This document shows, piece after piece, positions 44,229 to 64,000 of a DNA stretch of 64,000 bases; the stretch's first letter is position 1, and each line of letters begins with the position of its first letter. The stretch lies in IMG/VR virus record IMGVR_UViG_3300044766_000192, positions 1 through 64,000 of that record; one strand, 5' to 3'. Position numbers and translations under genes: made by a program. The DNA comes from a virus. Below the pieces are notes generated by a model that had not been told where the DNA came from, ran no database searches, and was given only the letters and a program-made list of their open reading frames with translations.

Positions 44229-47141
44229 ATGAAGCTGACTCTCGTCACAGCCCTCTATGATCTCAGCAAGCGCGGTGCCGACAAGCATCGAACCATCGAT
44301 TGGATGCTCGCGAATGGTAGCTTCGTCCTCGGGCAGCCCCATCACCTCGTGATCTTCACCGAGCCCGAGCTAGCCGATGAATTGAAGGCTCGGCGCGGCA
44401 ATCGGCCGACGACGATCCTGACGCCGCCGATCGAGGTACTCGTTGATCCAGAGCGAACGGCAGCGATTTTTCGCGGACAAATCCAGCACAACGCAACACG
44501 CGACAAGGTCACGCCACACTACATCCACTTGATGTGGGCCAAGTACGGGATGCTTGAGCACGCATTCGAGCGCGTAGACGTACCGATGACTCATCTCGGC
44601 TGGATCGACTTCGCGATCACGCATGTCGCCAAGCTGCCGCCGGCCGACATCGACATTTTCGTGAATCCGCCAGAGCCGCCTCGTGTCCACATGCTTCGCT
44701 ACTTCGACGCGAGTGATACAGCAAAGCCCGAATATCTGCACAACGTTCAAGGGCATCTTGCTGGCGGCCTCGTCGTCGGTCATGCCGGTCAGATGCATCA
44801 ACTCGTGCGCGAATTCTGGCAAGCAGCGGACGCTGCAATTCTACATGGGCTCGCGCCGCTCGATGAGGGCTTGCTCTCTGCGATCGTTGCGCAAAGCCCG
44901 AAGCGCTACTCGTACAGCTGCGGCGACTACTGTGACATCTTGCAGAACCACGACACGATCCGAGGGGGGCGCGATCACATCCGGTGGATGTACGACGATG
45001 CCGTTCAGCGTGGGGGGCAAGCCCGAAAATGGGCGGTAGAGCTTGCGCGATCGACGGTCACGAAATCGCCGCCAACGGCAGCCGTAGCAAAGAATTCGCT
45101 GCTCGGGCTCGTAATGATCGTCAAAGACGAAGCTCACGGAATCCGTGAAACGCTTGCCTCGTTCGCGCACTTCATCGATCGGTGGACGATCCTGGACACA
45201 GGGAGCACTGACGGCACGCAAGCCATCATCCGTGAAGCGCTCGTTGGTATCCCCGGCGAGCTTCACGAAGAACCGTTCATCGACTTCGCGACGTCGCGGA
45301 ACCGCGCGCTTGAGTTGCACAACAAGAAAACCACCTACACGATCATGCCGGACAGCGACGATCGCCTCGTCAACGGCTTGGCGCTGCGCGAGTTTCTTAT
45401 CACCGACGATACATACCAAGCCCGCACCGACGCAGCGTACATGGTCAACCTGCGCCGCGGTGACCTATCGTATTTCTTGCCGCTCGTGTTGCGAGCTTCG
45501 GCCGGTTGGCGCTATCGCGGCGCCGTTCACGAGTATGTTGGCCCAGTCACGGGTGAGGGCTTTGCGTCGACGAAGATTCCCGAAGTTCAAATCGTCCAGG
45601 ATCACGTACCACAGAGCCTCGAAGCTTCGCGCAAGCGCTGGGAGCGTGATCGGGTTCTGCTCATAGCCGAGCTGGCTATCAAGCCTGACGCCCCTCGCGC
45701 GTTGTTCTATGCAGGGCAGACTCACGAATGCCTCGGCTATCCAAAGACCGCGCTCGGCTTCTACAAGCGGCGCGTCGTCGTCGGTGGCTGGGCTGAAGAG
45801 ACCTTCGAGAGCTACCTACGCATCGCGAAGATCTTGCAGGCACTTGACCAGCCGTGGCCGGAAATCCAGCAAGCATACCTTGATGCGCACGGCTTCGATC
45901 CCAAGCGTGCCGAGCCGCTGTTCAAGATCGCCGAGCACTGGTACGCCAAGCAAGTCCACGCGCTGTCATACCTGTTCGCTTCGCGCGCCGCCGAGCTACC
46001 GCGCCCGGCATCGGTGCTGTTCGTCGACGAGGAGGTCTACGCGTGGAAGGCCGCTGATACCGCGGCGATCAGCGGCTACTACCTCAACGATGCTAACGCG
46101 AAGGCTAAAGGCCGCGTGTTCGCCGAGCAGTGCGTGCGCGCCAAGCCAGGTGACGAGCGGCTTCGCGCTAACCGAGCATTTTATGCGCCGCCGGCTCGCG
46201 AGATGTTCGATGGTTACGAATCAAGGGTGATCGGCTTCGTCCCAGAGGAGTCATGGAGTGCCACCAACCCATCAATCTTCTACGATGGCGCTAGCTGGCG
46301 CTGCATCGTCCGCACGACGAACTACAAGATCGTCAACGGCCAATACTTGACTCCCAGCGACAATGTCATCTACACGCGCAACTTCATGTTGGAACTTGAT
46401 GACAACCTCAACACGACGCGTGCCGTCGAGATGATCGACGCTACCGGCTTTCCGCGATCGAGCTATCCGGTTCACGGCTTCGAGGATTGCCGACTGTTCA
46501 AGCACGAGGGCAAGCTCTGCTTCACGGCGACGGTTTGCGATTTCGATCTCGAACGAGCCACCGAAGGCCCACGTGAGATCGTGCTCGGTGATCTAGATCG
46601 CGACTACAAGATCGTCGGCGCGACACCACTGCGCGGCCCGTGGAGCGATCGAGCACAAAAGAACTGGATGCCTCGAAGCGGCGACGGCGTTGATTGTCGG
46701 GCCGATCTCATCTACGCGCTGTCGCCTAATGGTGGGGTACAGCCGACCGTGTTCAATCTCAGCTTCGATCTCGATGGGGCCGATCTCGATGGGGCCACGA
46801 TCACGGCAGACGCGACGAACTTTGATCACGGGCGGCTACGCGGCGGCTCGCAGCTCGTGCGCGTGCCCGAGGGCTGGCTCTGTATCGTTCATGATGTCTC
46901 GTGGCCAGGTACCGGGCGGATCTACCTGCATCGCTTCGTATTGCTCTCCGGTCACCACAAGATCCTTGCAATGACCGATCCGTTCTACTTCGATCGCAAG
47001 GGCGTCGAATTCTGCGCTGGGCTCGCCTACGACAGTAAGCGGCTCGTCGCGAGCTTTGGCGTTGAGGATCGTGAGGCACACTTCGGGATCTTCACGCTCG
47101 AAGCCGTGCGCGCCGCGCTTCGCGTTGACTATCAGATCTAA
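44229..47141 (+). CDS. Multidomain glycosylation protein: HtrL/WlaTC-like + GT2 + TPR + beta-propeller glycosidase-like
   Basis: TLVTALYDL/WIDFAI; MIVKDE, DTGSTDGT, HEY; RAEPL TPRs; NPSI, EDCRLF, KNWMP, EFCAGL. Confidence 0.8.
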   Translation: MKLTLVTALYDLSKRGADKHRTIDWMLANGSFVLGQPHHLVIFTEPELADELKARRGNRPTTILTPPIEVLVDPERTAAIFRGQIQHNATRDKVTPHYIHLMWAKYGMLEHAFERVDVPMTHLGWIDFAITHVAKLPPADIDIFVNPPEPPRVHMLRYFDASDTAKPEYLHNVQGHLAGGLVVGHAGQMHQLVREFWQAADAAILHGLAPLDEGLLSAIVAQSPKRYSYSCGDYCDILQNHDTIRGGRDHIRWMYDDAVQRGGQARKWAVELARSTVTKSPPTAAVAKNSLLGLVMIVKDEAHGIRETLASFAHFIDRWTILDTGSTDGTQAIIREALVGIPGELHEEPFIDFATSRNRALELHNKKTTYTIMPDSDDRLVNGLALREFLITDDTYQARTDAAYMVNLRRGDLSYFLPLVLRASAGWRYRGAVHEYVGPVTGEGFASTKIPEVQIVQDHVPQSLEASRKRWERDRVLLIAELAIKPDAPRALFYAGQTHECLGYPKTALGFYKRRVVVGGWAEETFESYLRIAKILQALDQPWPEIQQAYLDAHGFDPKRAEPLFKIAEHWYAKQVHALSYLFASRAAELPRPASVLFVDEEVYAWKAADTAAISGYYLNDANAKAKGRVFAEQCVRAKPGDERLRANRAFYAPPAREMFDGYESRVIGFVPEESWSATNPSIFYDGASWRCIVRTTNYKIVNGQYLTPSDNVIYTRNFMLELDDNLNTTRAVEMIDATGFPRSSYPVHGFEDCRLFKHEGKLCFTATVCDFDLERATEGPREIVLGDLDRDYKIVGATPLRGPWSDRAQKNWMPRSGDGVDCRADLIYALSPNGGVQPTVFNLSFDLDGADLDGATITADATNFDHGRLRGGSQLVRVPEGWLCIVHDVSWPGTGRIYLHRFVLLSGHHKILAMTDPFYFDRKGVEFCAGLAYDSKRLVASFGVEDREAHFGIFTLEAVRAALRVDYQI

Positions 47142-47731
47142 CGCCCGCTTAAGAACTGCCAGCGGTTGAGGCCAACAGCAGGGTCACCGTTGTAGCGCAA
47201 CCACAACGTCGTCTGCGGCGGCAGCGTGTAATCGACTATGCTGTCCGTAAGAATCCGATTCGCAGCGTTCGACAGCTCATCGTTACCGAAGCGTGTCGCT
47301 AGGCTACCCGGGATCTGGTTGATCGCGATCGTCTTCCCGTCATCGGCGGGCGTCATGTCGGCGCCGTTGTTCGTGATACCCGTGATGACGCTGCTTCCTG
47401 CGACGTCGACCATGTTGATCGTGACGAACGTGTTTTGCCCGAGCACACCAAAGTTGACGTTGTTGTAGATCGTGCCAATGCCCGTGTTGAATGTCTTTGT
47501 TGGGAGAATCGTGTCGAACAGCGGCCCAGCACCACCGCCAGCCGGACCCGTCGGGCCTGTCGAACCAGCACCCGTTGCGCCCGTCGCGCCCGTTGGTCCT
47601 GTCGGTCCTGTTGGACCTGTCGAGCCCGCTCCTGTTGGACCTGTCGGCCCAACAGAACCTGCACCGCCGGGCCCGGTTGGACCCGTGGCACCTGCACTGC
47701 AACAGCCTCCAGCTTCTATCGGTGATTGCAT
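47138..47731 (-). CDS. Collagen-like fibre protein
   Basis: GCC start, G-X-T triplets, beta-rich head. Confidence 0.8.
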   Translation of the reverse strand: MQSPIEAGGCCSAGATGPTGPGGAGSVGPTGPTGAGSTGPTGPTGPTGATGATGAGSTGPTGPAGGGAGPLFDTILPTKTFNTGIGTIYNNVNFGVLGQNTFVTINMVDVAGSSVITGITNNGADMTPADDGKTIAINQIPGSLATRFGNDELSNAANRILTDSIVDYTLPPQTTLWLRYNGDPAVGLNRWQFLSGR

Positions 47732-47789
47732 TACGCGCTCGGCGGTGTGGTGTCTGCTTGGCTTGGCATGTTCTTAGGAAAGTTATGAA

Positions 47790-49840
<2,051 letters not shown>

Positions 49841-50827
49841 TCAGTCGTAAGCGGTGAGCTGAAAGAGAACGGTTCCCGGAGCCGACATCGTCACGTAGAG
49901 GTTCGTGTAGTCGACATCTTCTAGCTCGGCGCACGGCCCGACGATCACAGGCGTGTTCGGCGAAATTGCTTGCGCCCGATCAACGGGCTGCTCCTGTAGA
50001 TCGGTGGTCTGACTGATCGCTCGAATCGCGCCGACACGATAGTCAGCAACCTGCGACGCCATCATCATGATGTGGATGCGCTTGCGGCCGAACGTCGGGA
50101 TCGCCGCGATGAGTCGCTCGGCGCCGACTGCTACGGGCGTGTGCGAACCGACTGTGCCTTGAACTTGAAGTGGAAAGCGCTTCTGTGGAGCATAGACGAT
50201 CGGCGCCTTGAGGTAGAGGTAGAGGTGCAACCTCGGAAATAGGTTGTTGCCGTCAACATTGGTGCCGAAATTAACCCCAGCGCCGCCGGAAGCCGGGCGA
50301 TACGTCTGCGGCAAAACTGTCGTCTCTTGGAGCTTTGGAAACTCGAACTGACTTTGATTCCCGGACCCGAAGTCATCAGCAAATGGGAACACGTACAACG
50401 AGCCGTCCACGACCTGTGAGAAAAGCGGATTGTCGGGTGCTCCCGGAAGATCTTTCTTACCTGGATTCGCGTTCTGCGTGAACATCAGCGGCGTATCGAC
50501 CGATAGTCGATGCAGACGATTGGTGCGCAGCGAAGCCTGTGTCGCGAACGTCGGACTCTTCCCGAGGTTGAAGCTCACCCAGCAGCGATCGACCGTGCTC
50601 TGCGGGCCGATCGCGATTCCGGCGAGTGCTGTTGGAACAGAAACCTCCGTTGGACCATTTGGGGTTGCCGTGTCGACGCTCGTCGGGGGCCACTGCAAAT
50701 TCTTGTAGTCGCCGGTTGGATCTCCGGGATCTCGAAAACCCCACTCGTTGAAGATCACTTCGTATAGATCGTGCCCGCGCGCGATAGCGTCTTTGATGCC
50801 AAATTCTGGATTGTTACTCCACGGCAT
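49841..50827 (-). CDS. Putative vertex/turret structural protein
   Basis: Beta-rich, between small jelly-roll gene and fibres. Confidence 0.5.
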   Translation of the reverse strand: MPWSNNPEFGIKDAIARGHDLYEVIFNEWGFRDPGDPTGDYKNLQWPPTSVDTATPNGPTEVSVPTALAGIAIGPQSTVDRCWVSFNLGKSPTFATQASLRTNRLHRLSVDTPLMFTQNANPGKKDLPGAPDNPLFSQVVDGSLYVFPFADDFGSGNQSQFEFPKLQETTVLPQTYRPASGGAGVNFGTNVDGNNLFPRLHLYLYLKAPIVYAPQKRFPLQVQGTVGSHTPVAVGAERLIAAIPTFGRKRIHIMMMASQVADYRVGAIRAISQTTDLQEQPVDRAQAISPNTPVIVGPCAELEDVDYTNLYVTMSAPGTVLFQLTAYD

Positions 50828-51148
50828 CTACGCCCTCACCAATGCTTCGGGGAATGCCTCGGAGACAGAGATCGAAACTACTCCATCACCTCCGAGGCTA
50901 ACAGCATAGATGCCCTGCTTGGGCGCAAGCACGAAGACTTCCGATCGATCTGACGGCAGCTGAAACTGTCCCGCTAGTCCGGCAGAAGCCTCGACGAGAT
51001 CCGACGGCGAGAATGCTAGAAACACGAGTGCGGGCCCCACATTTCGCACGACGATCCGCAGCGGGTTTACCGTCGCGACGTAGAGCGTCGCCGGGTCTTT
51101 GAACCCGGAGATCGGTACGGCAACGGTGTTCATTAGAGACTCGCGCAC
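50828..51148 (-). CDS. Small single-jelly-roll protein (penton-like)
   Basis: RIVVRNVG..LVFLAF...FQLP...S...IYAVS; GGAGGT SD. Confidence 0.55.
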   Translation of the reverse strand: MRESLMNTVAVPISGFKDPATLYVATVNPLRIVVRNVGPALVFLAFSPSDLVEASAGLAGQFQLPSDRSEVFVLAPKQGIYAVSLGGDGVVSISVSEAFPEALVRA

Positions 51149-51184: not shown

Positions 51185-51682
51185 TTAGCGCGATTCAGAA
51201 GGCGGCGCGACGACGATCAGGAATCCCTGGAACATCCACGCGAGGCGCAGCGTGACGAGGTCGGAGAAGTTCGTGAACGCAAGCGCGTCCACGACGATCT
51301 GAAAGCTCTCCGCTCGCACGATCGTGTAGGGCTCGGCCCATTCCCACGTCTGCTCGGCCGTGCCTTTGGTCAGCAGCGGAAGCGCGGTCGGAGCCTTGGT
51401 CATCAGCTCGTTCTTGCCGAGGTCGGAGATCCGAACCCGCAAGAGCGATTGAAGGACCACCTGATCCGGCTGGTTGTCCAGCACGTCGCCGTTGGTGTCG
51501 AGCGCGATGCAGAATGGCTTGCAGCGATGGATCTCGAACGGCTTGTCGACGTTGTGCAGGAACGTCGCATCCGGGAACTGTTGGCCCACCTGGGCTGTCG
51601 TCATCGGAACTTCCCCGGCCATCTCGTAGGGAATCCGCATCGTGATCTTGCGACCAGCCCAGGAATCAGGAAGGCGACCCAT
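51185..51682 (-). CDS. Putative second (small) single-jelly-roll capsid protein
   Basis: 165 aa, alternating beta strands, DKPFEI...VRISD...PYTI...FQG; own promoter and AGGAG SD. Confidence 0.55.
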   Translation of the reverse strand: MGRLPDSWAGRKITMRIPYEMAGEVPMTTAQVGQQFPDATFLHNVDKPFEIHRCKPFCIALDTNGDVLDNQPDQVVLQSLLRVRISDLGKNELMTKAPTALPLLTKGTAEQTWEWAEPYTIVRAESFQIVVDALAFTNFSDLVTLRLAWMFQGFLIVVAPPSESR

Positions 51683-51762: not shown

Positions 51763-52107
51763 ATGGATCAGGACGATTACGTCAGTAGCTTCACGCGCCC
51801 CACCGTTGGACTCAAGGTCTACCTATCGCGCGGTCCATCGGGCTTGCCCGAGACCTTCGAGCGCAAGAGTGCCGATCGCGAGCTAGAGGTGTACCTCGGG
51901 CGCGTCAAGGTCAAGATCGCCATCGACAGCTTCATCAGGCGCATGTTGCTCGAACGCCGCCGCGAAGAATGGGGTGACGTGATCGAGCATCTCGCCGGGC
52001 TGACCAAGCTCGACGCCGAGATCGTGCCGCTCGATGCCGCCGTGGCGTTCTGGGCTCAGGTCAACCAGTCACGTGAAGCCGCGAGCCGAGCCAAAGCTCA
52101 GGCATAA
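51763..52107 (+). CDS. Hypothetical protein
   Basis: AAGGA SD, divergent. Confidence 0.55.
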   Translation: MDQDDYVSSFTRPTVGLKVYLSRGPSGLPETFERKSADRELEVYLGRVKVKIAIDSFIRRMLLERRREEWGDVIEHLAGLTKLDAEIVPLDAAVAFWAQVNQSREAASRAKAQA

Positions 52108-52350: not shown

Positions 52351-54078
52351 TTACTGGTAGAGCCGCGAACCAGTCCCGGTTGCGCCCGTCGCCGCTGCTG
52401 CGGTGATGTCGTACTCGTTGTCGACGGGCCGACCATCGGCTCCCGACAAGAAGTTGGCCCAGGTTCGAGCGGCACCGTCGCCAACCTTCATCTGGCCGGC
52501 TGTCCCGTTCGGTGGCGGCGTTCCCGCTGCCGACGTCACGGCGTCGACCTTGACGAACATACCGTCATCGACGTGAACACCAATACCCGTGTTGGCCGCG
52601 CCGGTCGTGCCGCAACTCAGAAGCTCCAGGACGCCGCTTCCGAGCGTGGCCGCGATCCCGTCGCGACCGCAGCCATAGACGTCGAGCTTGTTGAAGCGAC
52701 CACGCGAGCCGTGGAAGCGAATGCCGTCGCCCGTTGCGCCCGGCGTGTTGCGGACGATGCAGTTGAGGAAGCCCATGAACGGCGTCGCCGTTGGGATGCC
52801 CGCACCGTAGCCTGGCAACGATGACAGGACCTCGATCGGATCACAGGCATCGAAGCATTGCACGCGAAAGCTCGGCAGGCTCGGCGCGATCGAGAAGATG
52901 CCTCCAGTGCAGGCGTCCATGAGCCCGGCTTGCACGGTGCAGTAGCCGCCGAGAAACGGCGTGCCGATGATCCAATCGCGCACGAGGCGGCTGATCGCTC
53001 GCGTCGCCATGTCGACGTTCGGGCTTTGCAGCTTGCACATCTGCACGGCGATCTCTCCGACGCCAACGCAGGCGAGCCCGGGATTCGCGAGGCCGCCCGT
53101 GTTCGTAACTTCGAGCCCACTGAACGAGAGCGAGTCGGTGTTGAAGGCTCGAAGCGATCCGGCGCCGCCACCACTCGGTACGATGCCCGGCGTGTTCGAT
53201 CCCGAGATGTGAGCGCTCGGTTCCATGACCAGGATCGGCGTGGTGAGCGCCGTGTTCGTCGCGAGCAAGATTGAATTGTTGGTGCTCTCGATGATCACCG
53301 CGTTCTCACCACCACCGGTCGCACCGACGACGAATTTGCCCTTGAGCGCATTCGCGGCCCACGATGCGCGTGCAACGTTGAGCGTAAGTCTGATGAGCCC
53401 GGAGACTGCGACTGGAACGGCGGATAGGATATCGGCGCCGGCAATCGTTGCATCGGCGGGCGAGATCGCCGCCATGAGCTGAGGGATCGCTTGGATCCCG
53501 ACCGCGGTGGCGAACAGGAACCACTGGCTGCCAACGTCGACGGCGATCGTCCGTGGCGTTTTCCAAGCCGGTAGCGTGTAGTCGGCCGGCAGGACTTCCG
53601 TGATGCCGGTGACGTCGACGATGTAGCGCACGCCCGGCGGCAGAATCTCCGGGACGTCGCGAACAGCACGTTGAAGTGTCAAATACGGCGTCGCGAGCGA
53701 GCCGTTGCCGGTCGCGTCCGAGCCGGTAATGCGCGCGTAGATGATGATGGTTCCCACCGAGAACGGCGGGGTCGGGACGCCACCGGCACCACCGCCGCCA
53801 TCGGCGATAAACGGGTGCGGTGTGAGCGCGAGCGTAGCTACGTCGCCGAAGACGCGCTCGATCGAGTGCCAATACTCGACAAGCACGTCGACGTCGCCAT
53901 CGCCGCTGACCGTGACGTTCGTAGCATCCGCAGTGATCACGAACCCGGACTTGGAGGCTTCGATGTGGTCGGGGATGACCGCGCGGCCATTCTGCACGAT
54001 CAAGCCGTGTGGCAGAGAGACAGAGCCGCCACCGGGGGTGACGACGAAGTGCAGGATGTTTTTGAGTCTCGTTGCCAT
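52351..54078 (-). CDS. Beta-helix spike/receptor-binding protein
   Basis: IYARITGSDATGNGSLATPYLTLQRA cap motif of pectin-lyase-like helices; DGI repeats. Confidence 0.7.
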   Translation of the reverse strand: MATRLKNILHFVVTPGGGSVSLPHGLIVQNGRAVIPDHIEASKSGFVITADATNVTVSGDGDVDVLVEYWHSIERVFGDVATLALTPHPFIADGGGGAGGVPTPPFSVGTIIIYARITGSDATGNGSLATPYLTLQRAVRDVPEILPPGVRYIVDVTGITEVLPADYTLPAWKTPRTIAVDVGSQWFLFATAVGIQAIPQLMAAISPADATIAGADILSAVPVAVSGLIRLTLNVARASWAANALKGKFVVGATGGGENAVIIESTNNSILLATNTALTTPILVMEPSAHISGSNTPGIVPSGGGAGSLRAFNTDSLSFSGLEVTNTGGLANPGLACVGVGEIAVQMCKLQSPNVDMATRAISRLVRDWIIGTPFLGGYCTVQAGLMDACTGGIFSIAPSLPSFRVQCFDACDPIEVLSSLPGYGAGIPTATPFMGFLNCIVRNTPGATGDGIRFHGSRGRFNKLDVYGCGRDGIAATLGSGVLELLSCGTTGAANTGIGVHVDDGMFVKVDAVTSAAGTPPPNGTAGQMKVGDGAARTWANFLSGADGRPVDNEYDITAAAATGATGTGSRLYQ

Positions 54079-54121
54079 GGCCCTAGTAAATACTTGATCG
54101 CGCTTGCGATCAAGGAACTAG

Positions 54122-54153
54122 AAACGACAAAGGCGCCCCCGAAGGAGCGCCTC
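54122..54153 (-). terminator. Intrinsic terminator after putative major capsid gene
   Basis: AGGCGCTCC-TTCG-GGGGCGCCT hairpin followed by a T-rich run. Confidence 0.7.
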
Positions 54154-54188
54154 TTATGATTGCCGAGAGGTCGAATCGCGCGTTGCGA

Positions 54189-54899
54189 TTAGACGACCGA
54201 GCGTCGGATCAGGCCGTAGAAGTAGACCTTCTCGTCGGCGAAGTTCAGGTCGTCACCAGCATCCGATGCGTCCTGGGCGATCTGCAACGCCGCTTCCGGT
54301 TGGAAGCTGAACGTGTAGCCGAGGTTCTCACGCATCCACACCGGCAGCACGAGCGCGTTGCGATCACGCGGGCTCGGGATGCCGTTCTGGGCGATCTCGA
54401 AGAACGCGTTGGTCGAGAACACCGCGAAGCCGTGACCCTGCGGATAGTCCTGGATCACACCCGACGTGTAGACCTTGCCGTTGTAGTTGTACTCCAGGAA
54501 CGTCACGCGATCGACCTGGAACAACGTCACGAGCTGCGGAGGATCCGACAGCGCGCCATTGGTGTCCGGCAGCTGCGGATCGCTCTTGCCTTCGGCGGGC
54601 CGCATGACTCGCGTCATCTTGCAGCCGACGCCGTAGACGTACATCTCCCAGTCCTTCGGGAGACCCGCCGATCCCGCGCGCGGGATGTTCGTGTCGACAC
54701 GCGTGCTCGTACGCGTGCCACCAGGGATCTGCTGCGATCGTCCGGCCGAGAACGCCTCGACGGGGCCGTTCTGCTGGTTGTTGAACTGGACCGTCGAGTA
54801 GAGCTTGTCGTCGATCCAATCCGAGATCTGGATCGTCTGCCCGTTGTCCATCGTGATCGTGGTTGTGCCTGGTGCTACGCCAACAGTTCCGCCTGCCAT
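54189..54899 (-). CDS. Putative major capsid protein, single jelly roll
   Basis: 236 aa beta-rich; LYST..F, DTN....LP....V, NG.P, YG..RRSV pattern; AAGGAG SD and terminator; follows a membrane/core gene. Confidence 0.6.
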   Translation of the reverse strand: MAGGTVGVAPGTTTITMDNGQTIQISDWIDDKLYSTVQFNNQQNGPVEAFSAGRSQQIPGGTRTSTRVDTNIPRAGSAGLPKDWEMYVYGVGCKMTRVMRPAEGKSDPQLPDTNGALSDPPQLVTLFQVDRVTFLEYNYNGKVYTSGVIQDYPQGHGFAVFSTNAFFEIAQNGIPSPRDRNALVLPVWMRENLGYTFSFQPEAALQIAQDASDAGDDLNFADEKVYFYGLIRRSVV

Positions 54900-55002
54900 G
54901 ACTCTCTCCTTGTGAAGACTTGGTTTTTGGCTCGCGTGGGAGTCGTCCCCCGCACGAGCAGTGAGCTTTGTCGATCTCGTTCAGTGAACGAGAGTGATCG
55001 GC

Positions 55003-55626
55003 CTAGTGATGCTGGCCGTAGAGCGTCGCGCCGTAGCGCGCCGAGAGCCCCGAGATGTTCGGGCCGCCCGCCGCGAGCTGCTGACCGAGCAGATTCACCG
55101 GAGGCCGAGCACCGCCACCGCGCGCTGCGCCGAAGCCCGAGACTTGCGGACCGGCAACGCCAGGGATCGTGCCTTGCGGATGGCTGGTTGCCGAAACCGA
55201 CGGCAGTCCGAACTGGCCACCGTTGAGAGCACTGATCTGTGGCAGGCCCATCTGACCGTTGAGGGCGTTGATCATCGGCATGCCCATGCCCTTGACCGGC
55301 TGAGCTGGCGCCGATGGCGCGAACAGCACGCCTTCGAGCCACTTCAGGCCGCTCGCGAGGAACGCACCCGCGAACGCGCCCCACGATGCGTGACGTGTGG
55401 ACTTCATCGCCCACAGCGCACCGCCACTCGCGAGCCCGACGAGGAAGCCGATCAGATCGGCATTCTGTTGCGCAGCGCTGCCCGGTGTGCCGCGTGACAG
55501 AGCCATCGAGGTGACGCTTGAGACGCCGCCGCCGATGAGCATGCCGTAGAGCGGGTTCATGCCGGGGTTCTCACCGAATTCGTTGAGGCCGAGCAGGTCG
55601 ACGTTTCCGAGCAGCTTGGTGGTCAT
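55003..55626 (-). CDS. Major membrane/core protein, 3 Gly-rich helices, multiple xxG sites in tail
   Basis: GAAGGAG SD; VKGMG, LNGQ, LNGG, VSGFG, ISGLS. Confidence 0.7.
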   Translation of the reverse strand: MTTKLLGNVDLLGLNEFGENPGMNPLYGMLIGGGVSSVTSMALSRGTPGSAAQQNADLIGFLVGLASGGALWAMKSTRHASWGAFAGAFLASGLKWLEGVLFAPSAPAQPVKGMGMPMINALNGQMGLPQISALNGGQFGLPSVSATSHPQGTIPGVAGPQVSGFGAARGGGARPPVNLLGQQLAAGGPNISGLSARYGATLYGQHH

Positions 55627-55642
55627 GAGATCTATCGCTCCT

Positions 55643-55831
55643 TCAGGGTTTTTTCGGGGCTGGGCAGCTGCCCTTGAACAGCCAGCCACTTCTTGTCTTC
55701 GCGCTCTTGCCGACGAAACAAAGGCGGGCCCCTCGTTTCGTCCTCGTATTGAAAACGCACTTGCACTCGCCGATGCCGAGCTGCTTTCGGCCGGATTCGC
55801 CCGAGCCCGAGAGCGTCATGATGCTCGGCAT
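55643..55831 (-). CDS. Small basic Cys protein with MPSIMTLSG leader
   Basis: GAGGAG SD; leader nearly identical to that at 20062. Confidence 0.65.
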   Translation of the reverse strand: MPSIMTLSGSGESGRKQLGIGECKCVFNTRTKRGARLCFVGKSAKTRSGWLFKGSCPAPKKP

Positions 55832-55841: not shown

Positions 55842-56375
55842 TCAGTGCCAAGGCCAGCGCAGGCCCCGCCACATCATCATCGTGGTCTTGTCGATTCCCT
55901 CCTGCATGTTCGGCGGAAGGTTCGATGATCGGCCGTACGCCTGCGCGACCATCTGATGGATCTGCCGTTGCGGCCCGCCCCACGGACCGATGCCGGCAGC
56001 CGGGCCGTACGCACTTTGCTGTACAGCGACACCACCGCCCGGAACCGAAGAGTCGGCGAACCCCACCGGAGCGCTCGCTTGCATCTTGCGCATCCACGCG
56101 CGAGCCCGAACACCCGCCCACCAATTCCGCAGCCGCGGAAATAGTGGAGCACCGAGCCCGCGCAGCACCGGGCGATAGACGCCGGGGCCTGACAACGTCA
56201 TGCCGCTCTGCGGGCCGGTCGTGAACGCATTCGCGACCATCTGAACGTCTTGTCCGGGGTTGTAGCCAACCATCGGCGAGAGAACGCTCGTGCGCATCAC
56301 GCGATCGGGCCGCATGAAGTGCGAGCCGCCGCCGTGCCGAGGAACTGCGTCACCGAGAAGTGAAATCTGGTGCAT
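55842..56375 (-). CDS. Low-complexity core-like protein with LLGD, LSGPG and LRGLG sites
   Basis: TTGCCC-N17-CATGCT-N7-ATG. Confidence 0.6.
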   Translation of the reverse strand: MHQISLLGDAVPRHGGGSHFMRPDRVMRTSVLSPMVGYNPGQDVQMVANAFTTGPQSGMTLSGPGVYRPVLRGLGAPLFPRLRNWWAGVRARAWMRKMQASAPVGFADSSVPGGGVAVQQSAYGPAAGIGPWGGPQRQIHQMVAQAYGRSSNLPPNMQEGIDKTTMMMWRGLRWPWH

Positions 56376-56533
56376 GAACGCGAGCATGCAGATCTGGATC
56401 TCGCCGGGCAACTAAGTTGTTTAGTGATTCTCGCCAGTTAAATAGACGCTGTGCTAACAACTGCGATGACGATTAAAACTAAATCAGTGAAGTTACGTGC
56501 TGAGTGTCAGAGCAATCTGATAACGAATCCCCC

Positions 56534-57532
56534 GTGGGAAGACCGAAGATTCACGGTCGAAGTAAGCTACCAGAATATGTAGTTTGGTCGGGAATGCTTC
56601 AACGCTGTACAAACCCTAACAACTCCGGTTGGAAAAACTATGGTGGGCGAGGCATCAATGTTTGCGAGCGTTGGCGGTCGTTTGAAAACTTCTTTGCCGA
56701 CATGGGAGTACGACCGAGCCCCGAATTTACAATTGATCGTTTCCCAAACAACAACGGTGACTACGAGCCCACAAACTGCCGTTGGGCGACGCGATTAGAG
56801 CAAGGTCGAAGCACCCGTCGAGTAAAACTCTCAGTTGAGCGTGTTCAAGAGATCTTTCTGTTATCAAAACAAGGCGCAAGTCTTCGATCAATTGCTCAAC
56901 GCTTTGGAGTATCAGACTCTACTGTTAGCTCGGTTCTAAACGGGACAACTTGGTGTCCACCAGGACAACCAAGAAAACAACCAGGCTACAAAAAACTGAT
57001 GCTAGTAATCGGTTCCAACACCGCACAGGCACTCGCGCCGCATACTATAGAGCATTCATGGGTGATGTTCGTTCAAGTGGCATCACCGGGCGGCGTCATC
57101 GGCCCAATCAAGATTGAAGGTGTGCGCGGGTCTCAAGTAAGCAAACGCTTGTTCGCAATCTCCGAGGACAATCCCTATCCAGCGTACTTGATCGGGCTCG
57201 TCGAAACGCCGACGCCCGCTGAGCATGCGCAAGCAATCTGCGAGCAGTACAGCACAAGTCATTTACATGACGGTTGGTTCGAACCGACGCCGGTCTTGCT
57301 GCAATTCATTCAGCATGTCGGGCAAAGCGCGCTCGCGAGCTTGATCGCAGCGACGCGGCCTGGCGGCGTGCCTGATGCTGTTGTCGGCATCGAAGAAATT
57401 GCTACTGTGCTTGATGTTTCAGTGCCGACGATTCGCAGACTTGTCACAGCCGGTGCGATCCCCCACTTTCGTGTCGGTCGTCAGCTGCGATTCGTCGTCG
57501 AAGATGTGCTTGCATCTATGAACCGCGGCTAG
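56534..57532 (+). CDS. HNH endonuclease-HTH fused to GIY-YIG/T5orf172-like domain and excisionase-type HTH
   Basis: YGGRGI.VCERW..FENF, IDR..NNG.YEP.NCRWAT; HDGWF; IATVLDVSVPTIRRLV..G.IP.FRVGRQLRF; class A promoter 56505-56526. Confidence 0.75.
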   Translation: MGRPKIHGRSKLPEYVVWSGMLQRCTNPNNSGWKNYGGRGINVCERWRSFENFFADMGVRPSPEFTIDRFPNNNGDYEPTNCRWATRLEQGRSTRRVKLSVERVQEIFLLSKQGASLRSIAQRFGVSDSTVSSVLNGTTWCPPGQPRKQPGYKKLMLVIGSNTAQALAPHTIEHSWVMFVQVASPGGVIGPIKIEGVRGSQVSKRLFAISEDNPYPAYLIGLVETPTPAEHAQAICEQYSTSHLHDGWFEPTPVLLQFIQHVGQSALASLIAATRPGGVPDAVVGIEEIATVLDVSVPTIRRLVTAGAIPHFRVGRQLRFVVEDVLASMNRG

Positions 57533-59110: not shown

Positions 59111-59313
59111 GCGAGCGCTACAAGCCGAAGGATCTCCTCCGAGCACGCGGCACGAGCCCCGTGAAGACTCAACCCAAGCCAACGGCGATCGACTATCACC
59201 AACAGCTACTACGAAAACGAACAGCTGAGCGGATCGGTGGAAGCCCCGTCGAGTGCAGTCACGGCGTGCCGTGGGTCGACTGCACGATCTGCTCGAAACC
59301 GATCAAGCGCTAG
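59107..59313 (+). CDS. Small protein with C-terminal CxHG..CxxC
   Basis: ATGA overlap. Confidence 0.5.
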   Translation: MSERYKPKDLLRARGTSPVKTQPKPTAIDYHQQLLRKRTAERIGGSPVECSHGVPWVDCTICSKPIKR

Positions 59314-59738
59314 CGACGGCGCTTTTTCTTGCCGCCGAGATGCTTCGCGAGGAACCAAGCACCCGTGCCGAGCGCCGCGACGATGCCGAGCTTGGGAACC
59401 CAGCCCCATGTATCTGGGAACACGCCCGCGAGAGCTGGATATGGACGGAGACCTGGAGGATGCTTCCAACCGATCTTCCTATCAGACCCCCAGACGGTTC
59501 CCCCGCCGAGCGAGCTGACGAAGCGCTTGAGCGGCGGATCGACCATCGTGATCCCGAGACCTGCAAGCCCGCGACGGTCGCTCGTTCCGGGGCCGAACGT
59601 CCCGAACACCGTCGGGTTGAGGGGCTGAACAGTCGTCTGCATCACGCCCTCGGGCATCACGAGATTCCGGTTGAGGTTGTAGTTGACGGTGGGATCTGGC
59701 GAGAACTGCCAGTCAGGAATGATGCCGAGCGAGATCAT
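59310..59738 (-). CDS. Virion membrane protein
   Basis: MISLG leader, LAGLG site, C-terminal TM plus KKKRRR. Confidence 0.7.
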   Translation of the reverse strand: MISLGIIPDWQFSPDPTVNYNLNRNLVMPEGVMQTTVQPLNPTVFGTFGPGTSDRRGLAGLGITMVDPPLKRFVSSLGGGTVWGSDRKIGWKHPPGLRPYPALAGVFPDTWGWVPKLGIVAALGTGAWFLAKHLGGKKKRRR

Positions 59739-59740
59739 GG

Positions 59741-60055
59741 TTAGCCCTTCCTTTTCTTGCGGCGCGGTGGGCGTACGATCACGCCAGTCATTCGACGATT
59801 GTACTCAGCGTATTCGCTGATATCGGGTCGTGCAAAAGAGATAGCCGCCGACGCCGCATCCCGCATTGCACGAGGATCATCAACGGCGATTCGCCGATCG
59901 TGAGCACTGCGTGCACCTCCGCTGGGATTTCGAACGTAGACAATCTCGCAACGCTCGCCCTTCACAGTCGGGCAGATCTTCACCCTGTACTGATCCGTTC
60001 GATCGTTCCACGCGACGTCCATCTTAAGCCGCCCGCTGATAAAACGTTTCGCCAT
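59741..60055 (-). CDS. Small basic protein (MAKRF...RRKKRKG)
   Basis: Operon packing, K/R tail. Confidence 0.6.
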   Translation of the reverse strand: MAKRFISGRLKMDVAWNDRTDQYRVKICPTVKGERCEIVYVRNPSGGARSAHDRRIAVDDPRAMRDAASAAISFARPDISEYAEYNRRMTGVIVRPPRRKKRKG

Positions 60056-60058
60056 AGC

Positions 60059-60316
60059 TCAAGCCCTCTTCGGTTTGCCGTAGCCTTCAGCCAGGGCGAT
60101 GGTTGGAACGATCACCGGGAACAACCCACCGAGGATGAACCACAAAATCCCCCACCCGATCGACTTGTTGCGACGGTAGCCGTGGAAGCCGCTGACCGCC
60201 GCTGACGCCGTTGCGAGGTAGGCGAGCCACGGAATCTTTGGCGGCATCGGAACAGGCGGCATCGCAGCCGGATCGATCAACGAAGGATCGTCGCTGAGCC
60301 CGATGAGAGTGATCAC
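60059..60316 (-). CDS. Small 2-TM virion membrane protein
   Basis: FHGYRRN.SIGW...W......P......A.GY; TAGGAT-N6-GTG. Confidence 0.7.
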   Translation of the reverse strand: MITLIGLSDDPSLIDPAAMPPVPMPPKIPWLAYLATASAAVSGFHGYRRNKSIGWGILWFILGGLFPVIVPTIALAEGYGKPKRA

Positions 60317-60338
60317 AGCGTCATCCTACACCAAAACG

Positions 60339-61055
60339 CTATGCGTCAAAATCTGTGATCCGGCCGACCGGCATCTCGACGCCGAAGTTGTTCTTACCGG
60401 GCAAGGTCGAATCGAGCGCGAGCCATTTCGTCGGCGCGACCTTGGGCAAGCCCGCCACCGCGTAGATGTGCGAATCTTCCCCGCGCCGTGTCTCGGCGAC
60501 CACGCGCAAGCGCGGCGTGATGCCGTTGAGTGCGAGCAGCGTCGCCGAAAGCGCAGAGTGATCGTCGCAGTCGCCACCACGAAATTCGTTGGTGCGCTTG
60601 GGGCTCTGGAACAGATCGATACCTTCGACGGGACCGTTGCGGCCAAACTTCACCGGAGCGATGTCGCCCGTGTAGCGCACACGACCCTTGACGTAGTCAT
60701 AGACGGCCTTGGCTTCGCACGTCCCATCACGCTCGGGACAGTGCTGCGTGATCCCGAGCGCGAGCTTACGCATCTGCGGATCCTGCACGCCTTTGTAGAC
60801 GAGATCTTGGATCGACGCGACGCGCTCCTCGATCGGCATCAGGGCCGAGCGCCGATGCTCCGTCCGCATGCCGCCTGATTCAGTAGACCCAACGAGCGGC
60901 GCGGGCGAGTAGCGCTTGGTGACGAGCCGATACTTCGGCTTGAACAGCCCCAAGCCCGCGAGCTGCCGCTGGCGCCGGCCAAAATAGACCAAACCGCCGA
61001 TGATCGCGATGGCGCCGACCGCGATGCCGAGGCGCTTCTTGTTCCGAGACGTCAT
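60339..61055 (-). CDS. Transglutaminase-like cysteine protease, putative maturation protease
   Basis: VRYT.D, GDCDD (Cys), SHIY (His), WLALD (Asp); N-terminal TM then LAGLG. Confidence 0.8.
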   Translation of the reverse strand: MTSRNKKRLGIAVGAIAIIGGLVYFGRRQRQLAGLGLFKPKYRLVTKRYSPAPLVGSTESGGMRTEHRRSALMPIEERVASIQDLVYKGVQDPQMRKLALGITQHCPERDGTCEAKAVYDYVKGRVRYTGDIAPVKFGRNGPVEGIDLFQSPKRTNEFRGGDCDDHSALSATLLALNGITPRLRVVAETRRGEDSHIYAVAGLPKVAPTKWLALDSTLPGKNNFGVEMPVGRITDFDA

Positions 61056-61070
61056 CGTGGCTCTAGCCTA

Positions 61071-61889
61071 TCACGCGCGCTTGTGGTGGCTGAAGATGAG
61101 AGCGAGCGTACCGAGTAACGCGAGGCCAGTCGGGACGTACCAATAACGAGCCGCTACTTCTGGAAGGGAAACACCCATACCGGATTTGCACTCGTTCGAC
61201 CAGCACCACCACGGTCGCGGCGCCATGCAGCCGTCGCCTGTGGGCGTAGGGATCATTCCAGAAGGACACGTCATCGTCGACGGCGGTGTCATCGTCGACT
61301 GAGCGCCAGCGGTCGGTGGCGGGCACAGGCTGATGTCCTGCGCTGAGCTTCCATCTGGACACAAAACGAAAGACGCCGGTTGTTGATCCTGTGGCAACGG
61401 CGGTGGTGGTGGCTGATAGATCGGCACTACGAGCGGCGGCGGCGTGGCAATCAGTGTCGAGGGATCAACGCCGAGATACGACGCGTAGCTCTGTACGAGC
61501 GCCTCTACGTTCGCTGCGATCCAATCAGCATTGACGCTGACGTCGAACAGCGCGAACTGCGGGATCCCGGTGTTCGCCATAAACAGGATCGCGTTGATGG
61601 TCGTCTGTCCGATGTTGCCGTCGACACTGATCGACGGAAAGCTCTGACCTGCTGGAAGATTTGCAGCAACTGCCAGGTTGAGCAGCACTTGAAGCTGCTG
61701 GACGCAGTAGCCTGGCGTGCACGCGTAGCTCGGTGGCGGGGCGTAGCTCGTCGACGGTACGAGCGCGCTCGTACTTTGTGAAGCAGCCGCACGCGTTGGA
61801 AATGATCTCGTCGGCAATAGCGCTGTAGCCGGATCTGATGGATCTGCTGTGCCGCCTGGTGCCATCCCGAGGCTCGTAATCGAGAGCAT
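61071..61889 (-). CDS. Membrane-anchored protein with peptidoglycan-binding-like and Cys-rich domains
   Basis: VQQLQVLLN...VDGNIGQTT, poly-Pro, CPDGS, C-terminal TM. Confidence 0.7.
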   Translation of the reverse strand: MLSITSLGMAPGGTADPSDPATALLPTRSFPTRAAASQSTSALVPSTSYAPPPSYACTPGYCVQQLQVLLNLAVAANLPAGQSFPSISVDGNIGQTTINAILFMANTGIPQFALFDVSVNADWIAANVEALVQSYASYLGVDPSTLIATPPPLVVPIYQPPPPPLPQDQQPASFVLCPDGSSAQDISLCPPPTAGAQSTMTPPSTMTCPSGMIPTPTGDGCMAPRPWWCWSNECKSGMGVSLPEVAARYWYVPTGLALLGTLALIFSHHKRA

Positions 61890-63064: not shown

Positions 63065-63076
63065 TAGGGTAGCCCC

Positions 63077-63571: not shown

Positions 63572-63577
63572 GAAGCC

Positions 63578-63997
63578 ATGGGACTTTCACATCCCTACAA
63601 CTATGAGCCGCTCTGGCAGGCACGCCGTGCAGAGCTTCGCGAAGCGCGCGAGCTTCACAACCGGACGCTCGGCGACGCCGCCAGCACCATCAGTCAGGCG
63701 ATCAACGTCATCAACGATTCGGGTGAGTATCTGGGAACGATCCAGCACATCCTTGAAGATCCAGATCTGCCGGGGTTGATCCAACGTGTCGAGACGCTTC
63801 GCTCGTTCGAGCCTCCCGCGGATCCGTACGCGCCTGATTCGGGGCCGGGACCGGGCATCGGGCTGCACCAATTTCTCGGGCCGTTCGATCTCTATCTCAA
63901 GATGAAGCAGTATCCGATTCTCCCGTGGCTCGCTGTCGCTGGGATCCTGACGCTGATCGGCGGTGTCGGTTATGCCATCGGAAAGCGTCGAGGATAG
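63578..63997 (+). CDS. Virion membrane protein
   Basis: C-terminal TM ending GGVGYAIGKRRG, similar to 24102-24434. Confidence 0.7.
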   Translation: MGLSHPYNYEPLWQARRAELREARELHNRTLGDAASTISQAINVINDSGEYLGTIQHILEDPDLPGLIQRVETLRSFEPPADPYAPDSGPGPGIGLHQFLGPFDLYLKMKQYPILPWLAVAGILTLIGGVGYAIGKRRG

Positions 63998-64000
63998 ATG

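What the first reader, a model, noticed from the sequence alone, without database searches (positions are those of the whole stretch)
47138..64000. Very large tailless, membrane-containing virus with two single-jelly-roll-like capsid proteins
Seen: 64 kb of viral genes with no recognisable terminase, portal, HK97 capsid, tail tube/sheath or tape measure. Instead the order is membrane/core gene, 236-aa beta protein (strong SD plus terminator), spike, 165-aa beta protein, 106-aa beta protein, 328-aa protein, collagen fibres, with more than 15 TM-anchored proteins elsewhere. Known: Helvetiavirae (SH1, HHIV-2, Thermus P23-77) use a large plus a small vertical single-jelly-roll capsid protein around an internal membrane and have genomes of roughly 30 kb or less with little replication machinery. 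Inference: a relative at least twice that size, with its own PolA, helicases, recombination set and ThyX, in a mesophilic bacterium.
Basis: partly seen in the sequence, partly recalled or inferred. Interest (0 to 1): 0.88.

Follow-up and report, generated by a model that had tools for sequence, protein, structure and literature searches.

The report
Large tailless jelly-roll bacterial virus
This stretch is the shell-building block of a complete 80-kb uncultured bacterial virus with no head, portal, terminase or tail genes of ordinary phages; it appears to build a membrane-lined shell from two small jelly-roll proteins, a design known so far only from viruses with genomes several times smaller.

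Summary
Observation confirmed. The window is bases 1-64000 of one 80,419-bp contig with a 148-bp terminal repeat, so the genome is probably complete. No terminase, portal, HK97 capsid or tail gene was found anywhere in it.

AlphaFold models of the 236-aa and 165-aa proteins are confident (pLDDT 93 and 92), and both are single jelly rolls. The four best solved matches to the 236-aa protein are shell proteins of membrane-containing tailless viruses: SPV1 VP4 (Z 9.3), HHIV-2, SH1 and P23-77. It is the family's most conserved protein.

A small membrane-anchored protein copies its N-terminal arm, and the copy co-varies with it in five genomes. That points to a shell tied to a membrane.

Relatives are complete 85-138 kb genomes from soil and sediment. 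One shell module lies inside a Gemmatimonadota chromosome.

Membership of Helvetiavirae is not supported. There is no sequence similarity, the gene order differs, and the FtsK/HerA-type ATPase outside the window is missing from four complete relatives.

The 328-aa protein could not be folded, so a double-jelly-roll capsid is not excluded. No particle has been seen. This scan had already reached similar readings for the same virus family on other genomes.

The parts
54189..54899 (-). Candidate major capsid protein, 236 aa, single jelly roll
   Evidence: AF2 on 126 sequences gave pLDDT 93.3 and pTM .87. Top four solved matches are SPV1 6oj0_A (Z 9.3, 140 aa, 3.5 A), HHIV-2 6h82_D (8.2), SH1 6qt9_h (7.5) and P23-77 3zn6_A (7.5). 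It is 56-80% identical in 15 IMG/VR relatives, the most conserved gene of the family. 213 clusters were found in 1.84 billion representatives.
54905..54910 (-). Shine-Dalgarno AGGAGA, 5 nt before the ATG of the 236-aa gene
   Evidence: Read directly from the sequence.
54093..54154 (-). Two terminator-like hairpins with T runs just after the 236-aa gene
   Evidence: 11-pair stem with 7 G-C pairs at 54154-54129, and a 9-pair stem at 54114-54093.
51185..51682 (-). Second single-jelly-roll protein, 165 aa; small capsid protein or penton candidate
   Evidence: AF2 on 64 sequences gave pLDDT 91.6. VIA matches: EhV-201 (Z 9.1), PBCV-1 (8.6), SPV1 (7.4), HCIV-1 (7.2), HHIV-2 (7.1), SH1 (6.8). Foldseek gave HHIV-2 6h82_E at 1.7e-3. 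292 homologues were found. AGGAGA lies 6 nt before the ATG.
50828..51148 (-). Conserved 106-aa protein, fold not tested
   Evidence: 36-51% identical in 9 relatives and always next to the 165-aa gene. GGAGG precedes the GTG start.
49841..50827 (-). Conserved 328-aa protein, fold not tested; vertex protein or possible double jelly roll
   Evidence: 25-40% identical in 7 relatives and syntenic. No Pfam, PHROG, NCBIfam or PDB match.
52351..54078 (-). Spike or receptor-binding protein, 575 aa: conserved 92-aa N-terminal anchor and a unique C-terminal part
   Evidence: Only residues 1-92 match relatives (30-46% identity), sometimes in two genes per genome. The gene is inserted between the two jelly-roll genes in this genome only.
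51763..52107 (+). Conserved 114-aa protein on the opposite strand between the two jelly-roll genes
   Evidence: Found in 10 of 15 loci and in G001, G002, G005 and G007.
55003..55689 (-). Glycine-rich hydrophobic 228-aa protein directly upstream of the capsid gene; candidate major membrane protein
   Evidence: Conserved in 13 of 15 loci at 41-63% identity. Sequence.
55842..56411 (-). Conserved 189-aa protein of the module
49310..49834 (-). Collagen-like fibre protein, 174 aa: Cys-rich N-terminus, G-X-Y run, globular C-terminus
   Evidence: Sequence. PHROG 'tail fiber' hits lie on the collagen run only.
47790..49313 (-). 507-aa protein with an N-terminal membrane anchor, between the two fibre genes
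   Evidence: No family match.
47138..47731 (-). Second collagen-like fibre protein, 197 aa
60339..61055 (-). Membrane-anchored transglutaminase-like Cys peptidase, 238 aa, conserved in all relatives
   Evidence: PF01841 at 1.1e-5. 51-73% identical in 15 of 15 loci. N-terminal TM segment.
59310..60316 (-). Two small conserved proteins (142 and 85 aa, the latter with a TM segment), separated by an unassigned stretch at 59739-60058
63998..64000 (+). Start of a 74-aa ORF (genome 63998-64222, running on into L001:1-222) that copies the capsid protein's N-terminal arm and ends in a TM helix plus RGRK
   Evidence: The ORF carries VGVAPSTTT against VGVAPGTTT in the capsid protein. Exactly one such second ORF exists in each of G001, G002, G005 and G007, and its variable residues match that genome's capsid arm.

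Best explanation
The region is the morphogenetic module of a complete genome of about 80.3 kb. The genome is circular, circularly permuted or terminally redundant. It belongs to an uncultured and probably temperate bacterial virus, one of a widespread soil and sediment family whose complete genomes run from 85 to 138 kb.

The virion is predicted to be tailless and icosahedral. The 236-aa single-jelly-roll protein forms the bulk of the shell. The 165-aa single-jelly-roll protein is either a second capsomer subunit or the penton. The spike with a conserved N-terminal anchor and the two collagen-like fibres decorate the vertices.

The shell probably sits on an internal membrane carrying the many small conserved membrane proteins. 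One of these presents a copy of the capsid protein's N-terminal arm and would dock the membrane to the lattice.

Genome encapsidation probably does not depend on an FtsK/HerA motor in this family. It may instead resemble SPV1, where the shell and membrane assemble around condensed DNA.

What is shown:
- The two folds.
- The conservation and synteny of the module.
- The absence of tailed-phage genes.
- The arm copy and its co-variation.
- The patchy distribution of the ATPase.

What is inferred: the capsid roles, the membrane, the vertex assignment and the packaging mode.
For: - The contig is complete or nearly so: it has a 148-bp terminal repeat with 147 of 148 bases identical.
- No TerL, portal, HK97 capsid or tail family was found in ORF scans or in six-frame scans of this genome and of relatives of 86-221 kb.
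- The 236-aa protein is a confident jelly-roll model. Its top four solved matches are all shell proteins of membrane-containing tailless viruses. SPV1 VP4 also comes up in Foldseek against PDB and BFVD.
- The 165-aa protein is also a jelly roll.
- The 236-aa gene is the most conserved gene in the family. It has a consensus SD and a double terminator.
- The module is syntenic in 15 IMG/VR contigs and in four fully fetched complete genomes.
- The arm-copy membrane protein co-varies with the capsid arm in five genomes.
- The spike has a conserved anchor and a variable remainder.
- The only P-loop proteins conserved family-wide are Sak4 and an SF3/VapE-type replicative helicase.
- The HerA-like ATPase is absent from G001, G002, G005 and G007 under a sensitive profile search.
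- Near-identical DNA occurs in sediment metagenomes from other studies.
Against: - No particle, lipid or proteome data exist.
- The jelly-roll Z scores of 7-9 are in the range where the tool warns that a match may reflect only a common arrangement. Cellular jelly rolls (PHM, Z about 7) and phage cement or fibre proteins also appear in the lists.
- This genome does carry an FtsK/HerA-type ATPase (PF01935 at 2.4e-10). Its Walker B region aligns with the P23-77 packaging ATPase, and it is shared at 50-58% identity with several relatives. Motor-driven packaging in this particular virus therefore remains possible.
- IMG/VR lists this record as linear and about 70% complete.
- The membrane-protein count rests on a crude hydropathy scan.
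Confidence: 0.62

Rival explanations
1. The real major capsid protein is the 328-aa protein, folding as a double jelly roll as in PRD1, PM2 and FLiP. The 236-aa and 165-aa jelly rolls would then be penton or minor shell proteins, making this a large Bamfordvirae-type virus.
For: At 328 aa the protein is within the size range of small double-jelly-roll capsid proteins. It sits in the same operon directly after the 165-aa and 106-aa genes. The 165-aa model matches the second jelly roll of giant-virus capsid proteins best (Z 9.1 and 8.6). The 328-aa fold is untested.
Against: The 328-aa protein is far less conserved (25-40% identity) than the 236-aa protein (56-80%). tblastn missed it in complete genome G001 and in 9 of the 15 IMG/VR loci. 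It has no profile similarity to either jelly-roll family or to any solved structure. The 236-aa gene carries the strongest expression signals.
Confidence: 0.12
2. It is a true, very large member of Helvetiavirae (Singelaviria). The two vertical single-jelly-roll proteins form hetero-capsomers, and the FtsK/HerA ATPase at genome 73871-75547 pumps DNA into a preformed membrane-lined procapsid.
For: There are two jelly-roll proteins of unequal size. HHIV-2, SH1 and P23-77 capsid proteins are among the top matches. A HerA/FtsK-type ATPase is present. Its Walker B block aligns with P23-77 ORF13, and its two C-terminal winged-helix-like repeats could read a packaging site.
Against: The ATPase is absent from four complete relatives that share every other core gene. 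It lies 20 kb from the capsid genes in a variable island beside an HNH endonuclease. The gene order is large then small. hhalign against VP16 and VP17 gives about 1% probability. Profile searches of the PDB find no helvetiaviral protein.
Confidence: 0.1
3. It is a highly divergent tailed phage whose HK97 capsid, portal and terminase escape every profile. The jelly-roll proteins would be cement, decoration or fibre proteins.
For: Jelly-roll cement and fibre proteins of tailed phages appear among the weaker matches: Pam1 7eel_H, KHP30/KHP40, and phage 7-7-1 fibres. PHROG 'tail fiber' hits exist, but only on collagen repeats.
Against: No family-wide conserved protein has the size and features of TerL, portal or an HK97 capsid. 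The conserved proteins over 250 aa are helicases, PolA, Sak4, a methyltransferase, a PD-(D/E)XK nuclease-like protein that carries an intein in this genome, and a coiled-coil protein. Six-frame family searches were empty in five genomes while controls rang. The only conserved P-loops are Sak4 and an SF3-type helicase.
Confidence: 0.08
4. It is not a virus but a plasmid-like or conjugative element, and the jelly-roll proteins serve a non-capsid role.
For: It carries a HerA/VirB4-like ATPase, a tyrosine integrase and many membrane proteins.
Against: It has a GH25 lysozyme, spike and fibre genes, and jelly-roll proteins whose best matches are viral shells. The ATPase is dispensable in relatives. 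No relaxase or type IV secretion families were seen in the scans. The contigs have defined terminal repeats.
Confidence: 0.04

Closest known systems
Sulfolobus polyhedral virus 1 (Portogloboviridae; VP4 hexamers and VP10 pentamers, PDB 6OJ0; PMC8459092)
   Same: The best structural match of the 236-aa protein is VP4 (Z 9.3, 140 residues, 3.5 A). VP4 also comes up in Foldseek against PDB and BFVD. Both viruses have two single-jelly-roll shell proteins, an internal membrane with subcapsomer proteins (shown for SPV1, inferred here), and no packaging ATPase that is conserved across the family.
   Different: SPV1 infects a hyperthermophilic archaeon. It has a 20-kb circular genome with no replication genes, and its DNA is in a VP1 nucleoprotein coil. 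This virus has an 80-kb genome with a full replisome and infers a bacterial host. There is no sequence similarity, and this genome carries a HerA-like ATPase.
Helvetiavirae / Singelaviria: SH1, HHIV-2, HCIV-1, Thermus phage P23-77 (PMC5332951, PMC6414509, PMC12714852)
   Same: Both have two unequal single-jelly-roll capsid proteins. Their MCPs rank 2-4 for the 236-aa model and at Z 6.8-7.2 for the 165-aa model. Both have a membrane-protein-rich structural module and vertex spikes that vary between relatives.
   Different: Their conserved block is ATPase, small MCP, large MCP, with the ATPase among the most conserved genes (PMC5332951). Here the order is large then small, and the ATPase is remote and missing from four complete relatives. 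Their genomes are 16-31 kb against 80-138 kb here. No sequence or profile similarity was found.
[quoted passage not shown]
   Same: It is a bacterial, tailless, membrane-containing phage with two MCP types and a genome sequence almost without database relatives. To my knowledge it is the largest genome reported for this virion type in bacteria (about 44 kb, from memory).
   Different: tblastn of the 236-aa protein finds no match in 50,697 GenBank phage records. I did not confirm that SSIP-1 is among those records. Its host is an extreme halophile, and its genome is about half this size.
PRD1 / Tectiviridae and other double-jelly-roll membrane phages
   Same: Both have an internal membrane, a vertex spike with a collagen-like motif (PRD1 P5, from memory), virion-associated wall-degrading enzymes, and a small single-jelly-roll penton.
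   Different: Their major capsid protein is one double-jelly-roll chain, and an FtsK/HerA ATPase (P9) is essential. Their genomes are 10-15 kb. Here the most conserved shell protein is a single jelly roll. PRD1 P3 scores only Z 5.3-6.1.

Membership tests
Helvetiavirae (Halopanivirales: Sphaerolipoviridae, Simuloviridae, Matshushitaviridae) | Two major capsid proteins, each a single jelly roll | tested here: met
   Both models are confident jelly rolls with HHIV-2, SH1 and P23-77 MCPs among the top matches. Their role as capsid proteins is inferred.
Helvetiavirae (Halopanivirales: Sphaerolipoviridae, Simuloviridae, Matshushitaviridae) | Conserved gene block of packaging ATPase, small MCP, large MCP | tested here: not met
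   The order here is large, then spike, then small. In relatives it is large, then a small opposite-strand ORF, then small. The only FtsK/HerA ATPase lies 20 kb away.
Helvetiavirae (Halopanivirales: Sphaerolipoviridae, Simuloviridae, Matshushitaviridae) | FtsK/HerA-type packaging ATPase among the most conserved genes of all members | tested here: not met
   The ATPase is present in this genome. It is absent from complete genomes G001, G002, G005 and G007 by tblastn, the genome search and a sensitive profile search.
Helvetiavirae (Halopanivirales: Sphaerolipoviridae, Simuloviridae, Matshushitaviridae) | Sequence or profile similarity of the MCPs to members | tested here: not met
   hhalign against P23-77 VP17 and VP16 gives about 1% probability. 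Profile searches of all PDB sequences return no capsid protein.
Helvetiavirae (Halopanivirales: Sphaerolipoviridae, Simuloviridae, Matshushitaviridae) | Vertical orientation of the jelly rolls and pseudo-hexameric hetero-capsomers | not testable with these tools
   This needs a capsid reconstruction.
Helvetiavirae (Halopanivirales: Sphaerolipoviridae, Simuloviridae, Matshushitaviridae) | Internal lipid membrane | not testable with these tools
   Only indirect evidence exists: many small conserved TM proteins and a membrane-anchored copy of the capsid arm that co-varies with it.
Portogloboviridae (SPV1) | Single-jelly-roll MCP (VP4) plus single-jelly-roll penton (VP10) | tested here: inconclusive
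   At the fold level, VP4 is the best match of the 236-aa model (Z 9.3) and matches the 165-aa model at Z 7.4. Which protein forms hexamers or pentamers cannot be told.
Portogloboviridae (SPV1) | No packaging ATPase; DNA condensed in a nucleoprotein core | tested here: inconclusive
   Four complete relatives have no candidate motor, but this genome has a HerA-like ATPase. The nucleoprotein was not examined.
Portogloboviridae (SPV1) | Sequence similarity to members, a genome of about 20 kb without replication genes, and a hyperthermophilic archaeal host | tested here: not met
   No PDB sequence match to 6OJ0 chains. The genome is 80 kb with PolA, helicases and Sak4. A relative is integrated in a Gemmatimonadota chromosome.
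Caudoviricetes (tailed phages) | HK97-fold capsid protein, portal and large terminase | tested here: not met
   No hits in Pfam, PHROG or NCBIfam scans of the ORFs, nor in six-frame family searches of five genomes with positive controls. Very divergent versions cannot be fully excluded without folding every unknown protein.
Bamfordvirae (double-jelly-roll viruses) | [quoted passage not shown] | not tested
   The only candidate is the 328-aa protein.

The most novel reading that the evidence does not exclude
This genome and its relatives represent an undescribed, high-rank lineage of large tailless bacterial viruses. Complete genomes run from 85 to 138 kb, and linear records reach 221 kb. The virions would be built from single-jelly-roll proteins over an internal membrane. 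Most members would fill their capsids without any FtsK/HerA or terminase motor, which amounts to a bacterial counterpart of SPV1 scaled up four- to ten-fold and carrying its own replisome.
Probability: 0.4. Interest if true: 0.9.

Novelty: new variant of a known kind. Interest (0 to 1): 0.8.

Why it matters
All cultured tailless, membrane-containing dsDNA phages have small genomes of about 10-44 kb and little replication machinery. Large bacterial virus genomes have so far meant tailed phages.

A widespread soil and sediment family of 80-138 kb genomes with a jelly-roll shell would break that rule. It would extend the single-jelly-roll capsid architecture, recently raised to its own realm (Singelaviria, PMC12714852), well beyond extremophiles.

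It would also raise a concrete mechanistic question: how is 80-138 kb of DNA enclosed when most members lack any recognisable packaging motor? The arm-copy membrane protein gives a directly testable hypothesis for how a protein lattice is coupled to a lipid vesicle.

Tried and rejected
- Complex prediction of the 236-aa and 165-aa proteins returned no answer (score 0.00, below the mark). This is neither support for nor evidence against binding.
- The search for related loci with the ATPase and with distant capsid-family members (P0052, P0022, P0016) found nothing in IMG/VR. Alignments A2 and A7 were too diverse for pattern search.
- The ESM Atlas gave nothing usable for the 328-aa protein: no model, and the best named neighbour scored 0.75.
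- hhalign of the 328-aa family against both jelly-roll families, and of the two jelly-roll families against each other, was empty.
- I considered the conserved 551-aa P-loop protein (genome 77408-79063) as the family's packaging ATPase and rejected it. Its Atlas model superposes on the helicase part of Toprim/DnaG-fused primase-helicases (TM .72-.84). Its feature neighbours carry DUF5906 and VapE domains, and PDB hits are only AAA+ Walker A regions.
- I considered the 704-aa conserved protein (genome 65955-68069) as a portal and rejected it. It is a Q/E-rich coiled-coil, low-complexity protein with no family match.
- No RNA holder was listed among the public runs.
- The laid runs were contigs only, so nothing can be said about genome ends or expression.
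- No tRNA genes were found.
- Host bins other than the Gemmatimonadota chromosome (Actinomycetes, Polyangiales and Woesearchaeota MAG contigs of 1.6-28 kb) were judged too short to trust.

Full report
**Where the window lies.** The window is bases 1-64000 of a single 80,419-bp contig. The first 148 bases recur at the end with one mismatch. The unit genome is therefore about 80,271 bp and is circular, permuted or terminally redundant. IMG/VR lists the record as 'linear, about 70% complete', presumably because the repeat is imperfect. I fetched the remaining 16.4 kb as L001 and called about 109 genes from the strong codon-position GC signature.

**The observation.** The 236-aa gene has AGGAGA five bases before its ATG and is followed by two hairpin plus T-run terminators. 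The 165-aa gene has the same AGGAGA. Two genes encode collagen-like G-X-Y runs.

Pfam, PHROG and NCBIfam scans of about 70 ORFs gave no terminase, portal, HK97 capsid, tail tube, sheath or tape-measure hit. Six-frame searches with Terminase_6N, Phage_capsid and Phage_portal were empty in this genome and in four relatives of 86-221 kb, while control genomes rang.

**The rest of the genome.**
- Replication module (278-18600, plus strand): an SNF2 helicase, an intein-bearing PD-(D/E)XK protein, Sak4, SSB, a 2012-aa UDG-PolA fusion with two inteins, a UvrD helicase and a methyltransferase.
- Elsewhere: a tyrosine integrase, a GH25 lysozyme, a 2OG-Fe(II) oxygenase, glycosyltransferases and ThyX.

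**The folds.** The 236-aa protein has 15 IMG/VR relatives at 56-80% identity. A profile search found 213 clusters among 1.84 billion representatives, nearly all 200-260 aa long.
- AlphaFold2 on 126 sequences gave pLDDT 93.3 and pTM 0.87, an all-beta sandwich.
- VIA-align against 48,161 chains ranked SPV1 (Z 8.7), HHIV-2 (8.1) and HCIV-1 (7.5) first.
- Re-alignment of Foldseek's top 1,000 gave SPV1 6oj0_A (Z 9.3, 140 residues, 3.5 A), HHIV-2 6h82_D (8.2), SH1 6qt9_h (7.5) and P23-77 3zn6_A (7.5) as the top four.
- BFVD identifies the SPV1 chain as capsid protein VP4.

The 165-aa protein has 292 homologues. Its model has pLDDT 91.6 and is also a jelly roll. It matches the second jelly roll of EhV-201 and PBCV-1 capsid proteins (Z 9.1 and 8.6), then SPV1, HCIV-1, HHIV-2 and SH1 at Z 6.8-7.4. 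Foldseek gave HHIV-2 at 1.7e-3.

These Z values are moderate, and cellular jelly rolls such as PHM score about 7. The fold is therefore secure, but kinship is not. No sequence-level link exists to P23-77 VP16 or VP17, between the two proteins, or to any solved structure.

**Family context.** I fetched four complete relatives in full: G001 (85,269 bp), G002 (85,650), G005 (85,185) and G007 (137,914, with a 123-bp exact terminal repeat and not a concatemer). All are collinear with this genome.

The shared core has three parts:
- the replication genes;
- the block 189 aa, 228 aa, 236 aa, 114 aa, 165 aa, 106 aa, 328 aa;
- a membrane-anchored transglutaminase-like peptidase, several small membrane proteins, a 704-aa coiled-coil protein and a 551-aa P-loop protein.

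The 236-aa protein is the most conserved of all. The 575-aa 'spike' shares only its first 92 residues with relatives, the pattern expected of a receptor-binding protein with a conserved virion anchor. No GenBank phage record holds the 236-aa protein.

Near-identical DNA is present in sediment metagenomes from at least two other studies. One relative's module lies in a 4.74-Mb Gemmatimonadota MAG chromosome at 3,687,731-3,719,267. It abuts ordinary metabolic genes on the right side. That region holds the structural genes only, and the helicase homologue lies 1.46 Mb away. It may therefore be a remnant or an assembly artefact, and the host assignment is tentative.

**Membrane link.** I tested this here.
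- A 74-aa ORF starts at 63998, runs into L001 and carries VGVAPSTTT against VGVAPGTTT in the capsid protein. It ends in a hydrophobic helix plus RGRK.
- In each of G001, G002, G005 and G007 exactly one other ORF carries the motif.
- Its variable positions follow that genome's capsid arm in four of the five genomes: GTTT with GTTT, GTYT with GTYT, GSYT with GSYT, and here GTTT with STTT. G007 has GTST against GTIT.

This is the best indirect evidence that the shell is tied to a membrane. About 30 ORFs with hydrophobic segments add to it.

**The packaging problem.** A 558-aa protein at genome 73871-75547 (L001:9871-11547, minus strand) matches DUF87/HerA (2.4e-10), Zot, a PHROG labelled 'terminase large subunit', and HerA structures. 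Its Walker B block aligns with the P23-77 packaging ATPase, and its C-terminal half has two winged-helix-like repeats.

It has over 1,000 full-length homologues. These include the closest relative contig and three more distant family members, G009, G010 and L016. However, it is absent from G001, G002, G005 and G007 by tblastn, by the genome search and by a profile search with all filters off. In this genome it lies in a variable island next to an HNH endonuclease.

The only P-loop proteins shared by all members are Sak4 and the 551-aa protein. The latter is an SF3/VapE/DUF5906-type replicative helicase by the Atlas structure and feature search. The family as a whole therefore lacks a recognisable packaging motor, as SPV1 does (PMC8459092). 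This particular virus may still use its ATPase.

**Verdict.** The most likely reading (0.62) is a large tailless virus with a single-jelly-roll shell over a membrane. It works like SPV1 and the helvetiaviruses but is not a member of either family. Three defining helvetiaviral features were tested and not met: the ATPase-sMCP-lMCP block, a conserved ATPase, and sequence similarity. The main open rival is that the unfolded 328-aa protein is a double-jelly-roll capsid protein (0.12).

Other agents of this scan reached similar conclusions for relatives on other genomes. That is not independent evidence.

Noticed in passing
window 8212-14250 (+): A 2012-aa ORF fuses a uracil-DNA-glycosylase-like domain to a family A DNA polymerase. 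It is interrupted by two intein or homing-endonuclease insertions, one LAGLIDADG near residues 209-388 and one Hint plus HNH at residues 1489-1785.
   Followed up: partly
window 2586-5024 (+): An 812-aa PD-(D/E)XK-like protein carries an intein with a LAGLIDADG domain at residues 281-699. Relatives match only about 240-270 residues, so they probably lack the intein.
   Followed up: partly
L001:9871-11547 (-) = genome 73871-75547: A HerA/FtsK-type ATPase with a coiled-coil linker and two C-terminal winged-helix-like repeats (motif STRNAY-ARL). It has over 1,000 full-length homologues on contigs of about 2-230 kb (many of 40 kb or more) but is patchy within this virus family. Its function is open: packaging, segregation, or defence-related.
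   Followed up: partly
L001:13408-15063 (-) = genome 77408-79063: The SF3/VapE-type helicase is as conserved as the capsid module. In several relatives it carries inteins (Hom_end/Hint or Intein_splicing plus HNH), giving 795-889-aa forms.
   Followed up: partly
window 37020-38363 (-): Three tandem paralogous genes of 142-146 aa correspond to a single gene in each relative examined. No family match was found for the one scanned.
   Followed up: no
window 56504-57532 (+): A 342-aa ORF with atypical composition (GC3 .51 against about .78 elsewhere) lies between the capsid module and ThyX. It is possibly a recently acquired mobile gene and was not scanned against families.
   Followed up: no
window 60339-61889 (-): The membrane-anchored transglutaminase-like Cys peptidase, conserved in all relatives, is followed by a 272-aa protein with a weak peptidoglycan-binding hit (PF09374, 2.2e-3). 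A virion-borne wall-degrading entry enzyme seems at least as likely as the maturation protease proposed in another note.
   Followed up: partly
L045, L046 (records G009 of 221 kb and G010 of 196 kb): The more distant family members are about 200-kb linear records. One encodes a class II-like ribonucleotide reductase next to the ATPase. Whether these are jumbo genomes of the same virion type or proviruses with host flanks was not resolved.
   Followed up: no
L037 (G006:C1:2246421-2250887): In the Gemmatimonadota MAG chromosome the helicase homologue (with one in-frame TAG) lies 1.46 Mb from the capsid module. This suggests two separate remnants or a mis-assembly.
   Followed up: no
window 47138-47731 and 49310-49834 (-): Both collagen-like proteins begin with a similar Cys-rich N-terminal peptide (MQ...AG.CC) before the G-X-Y run. 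This is possibly a shared vertex-attachment or disulfide-linking motif.
   Followed up: no
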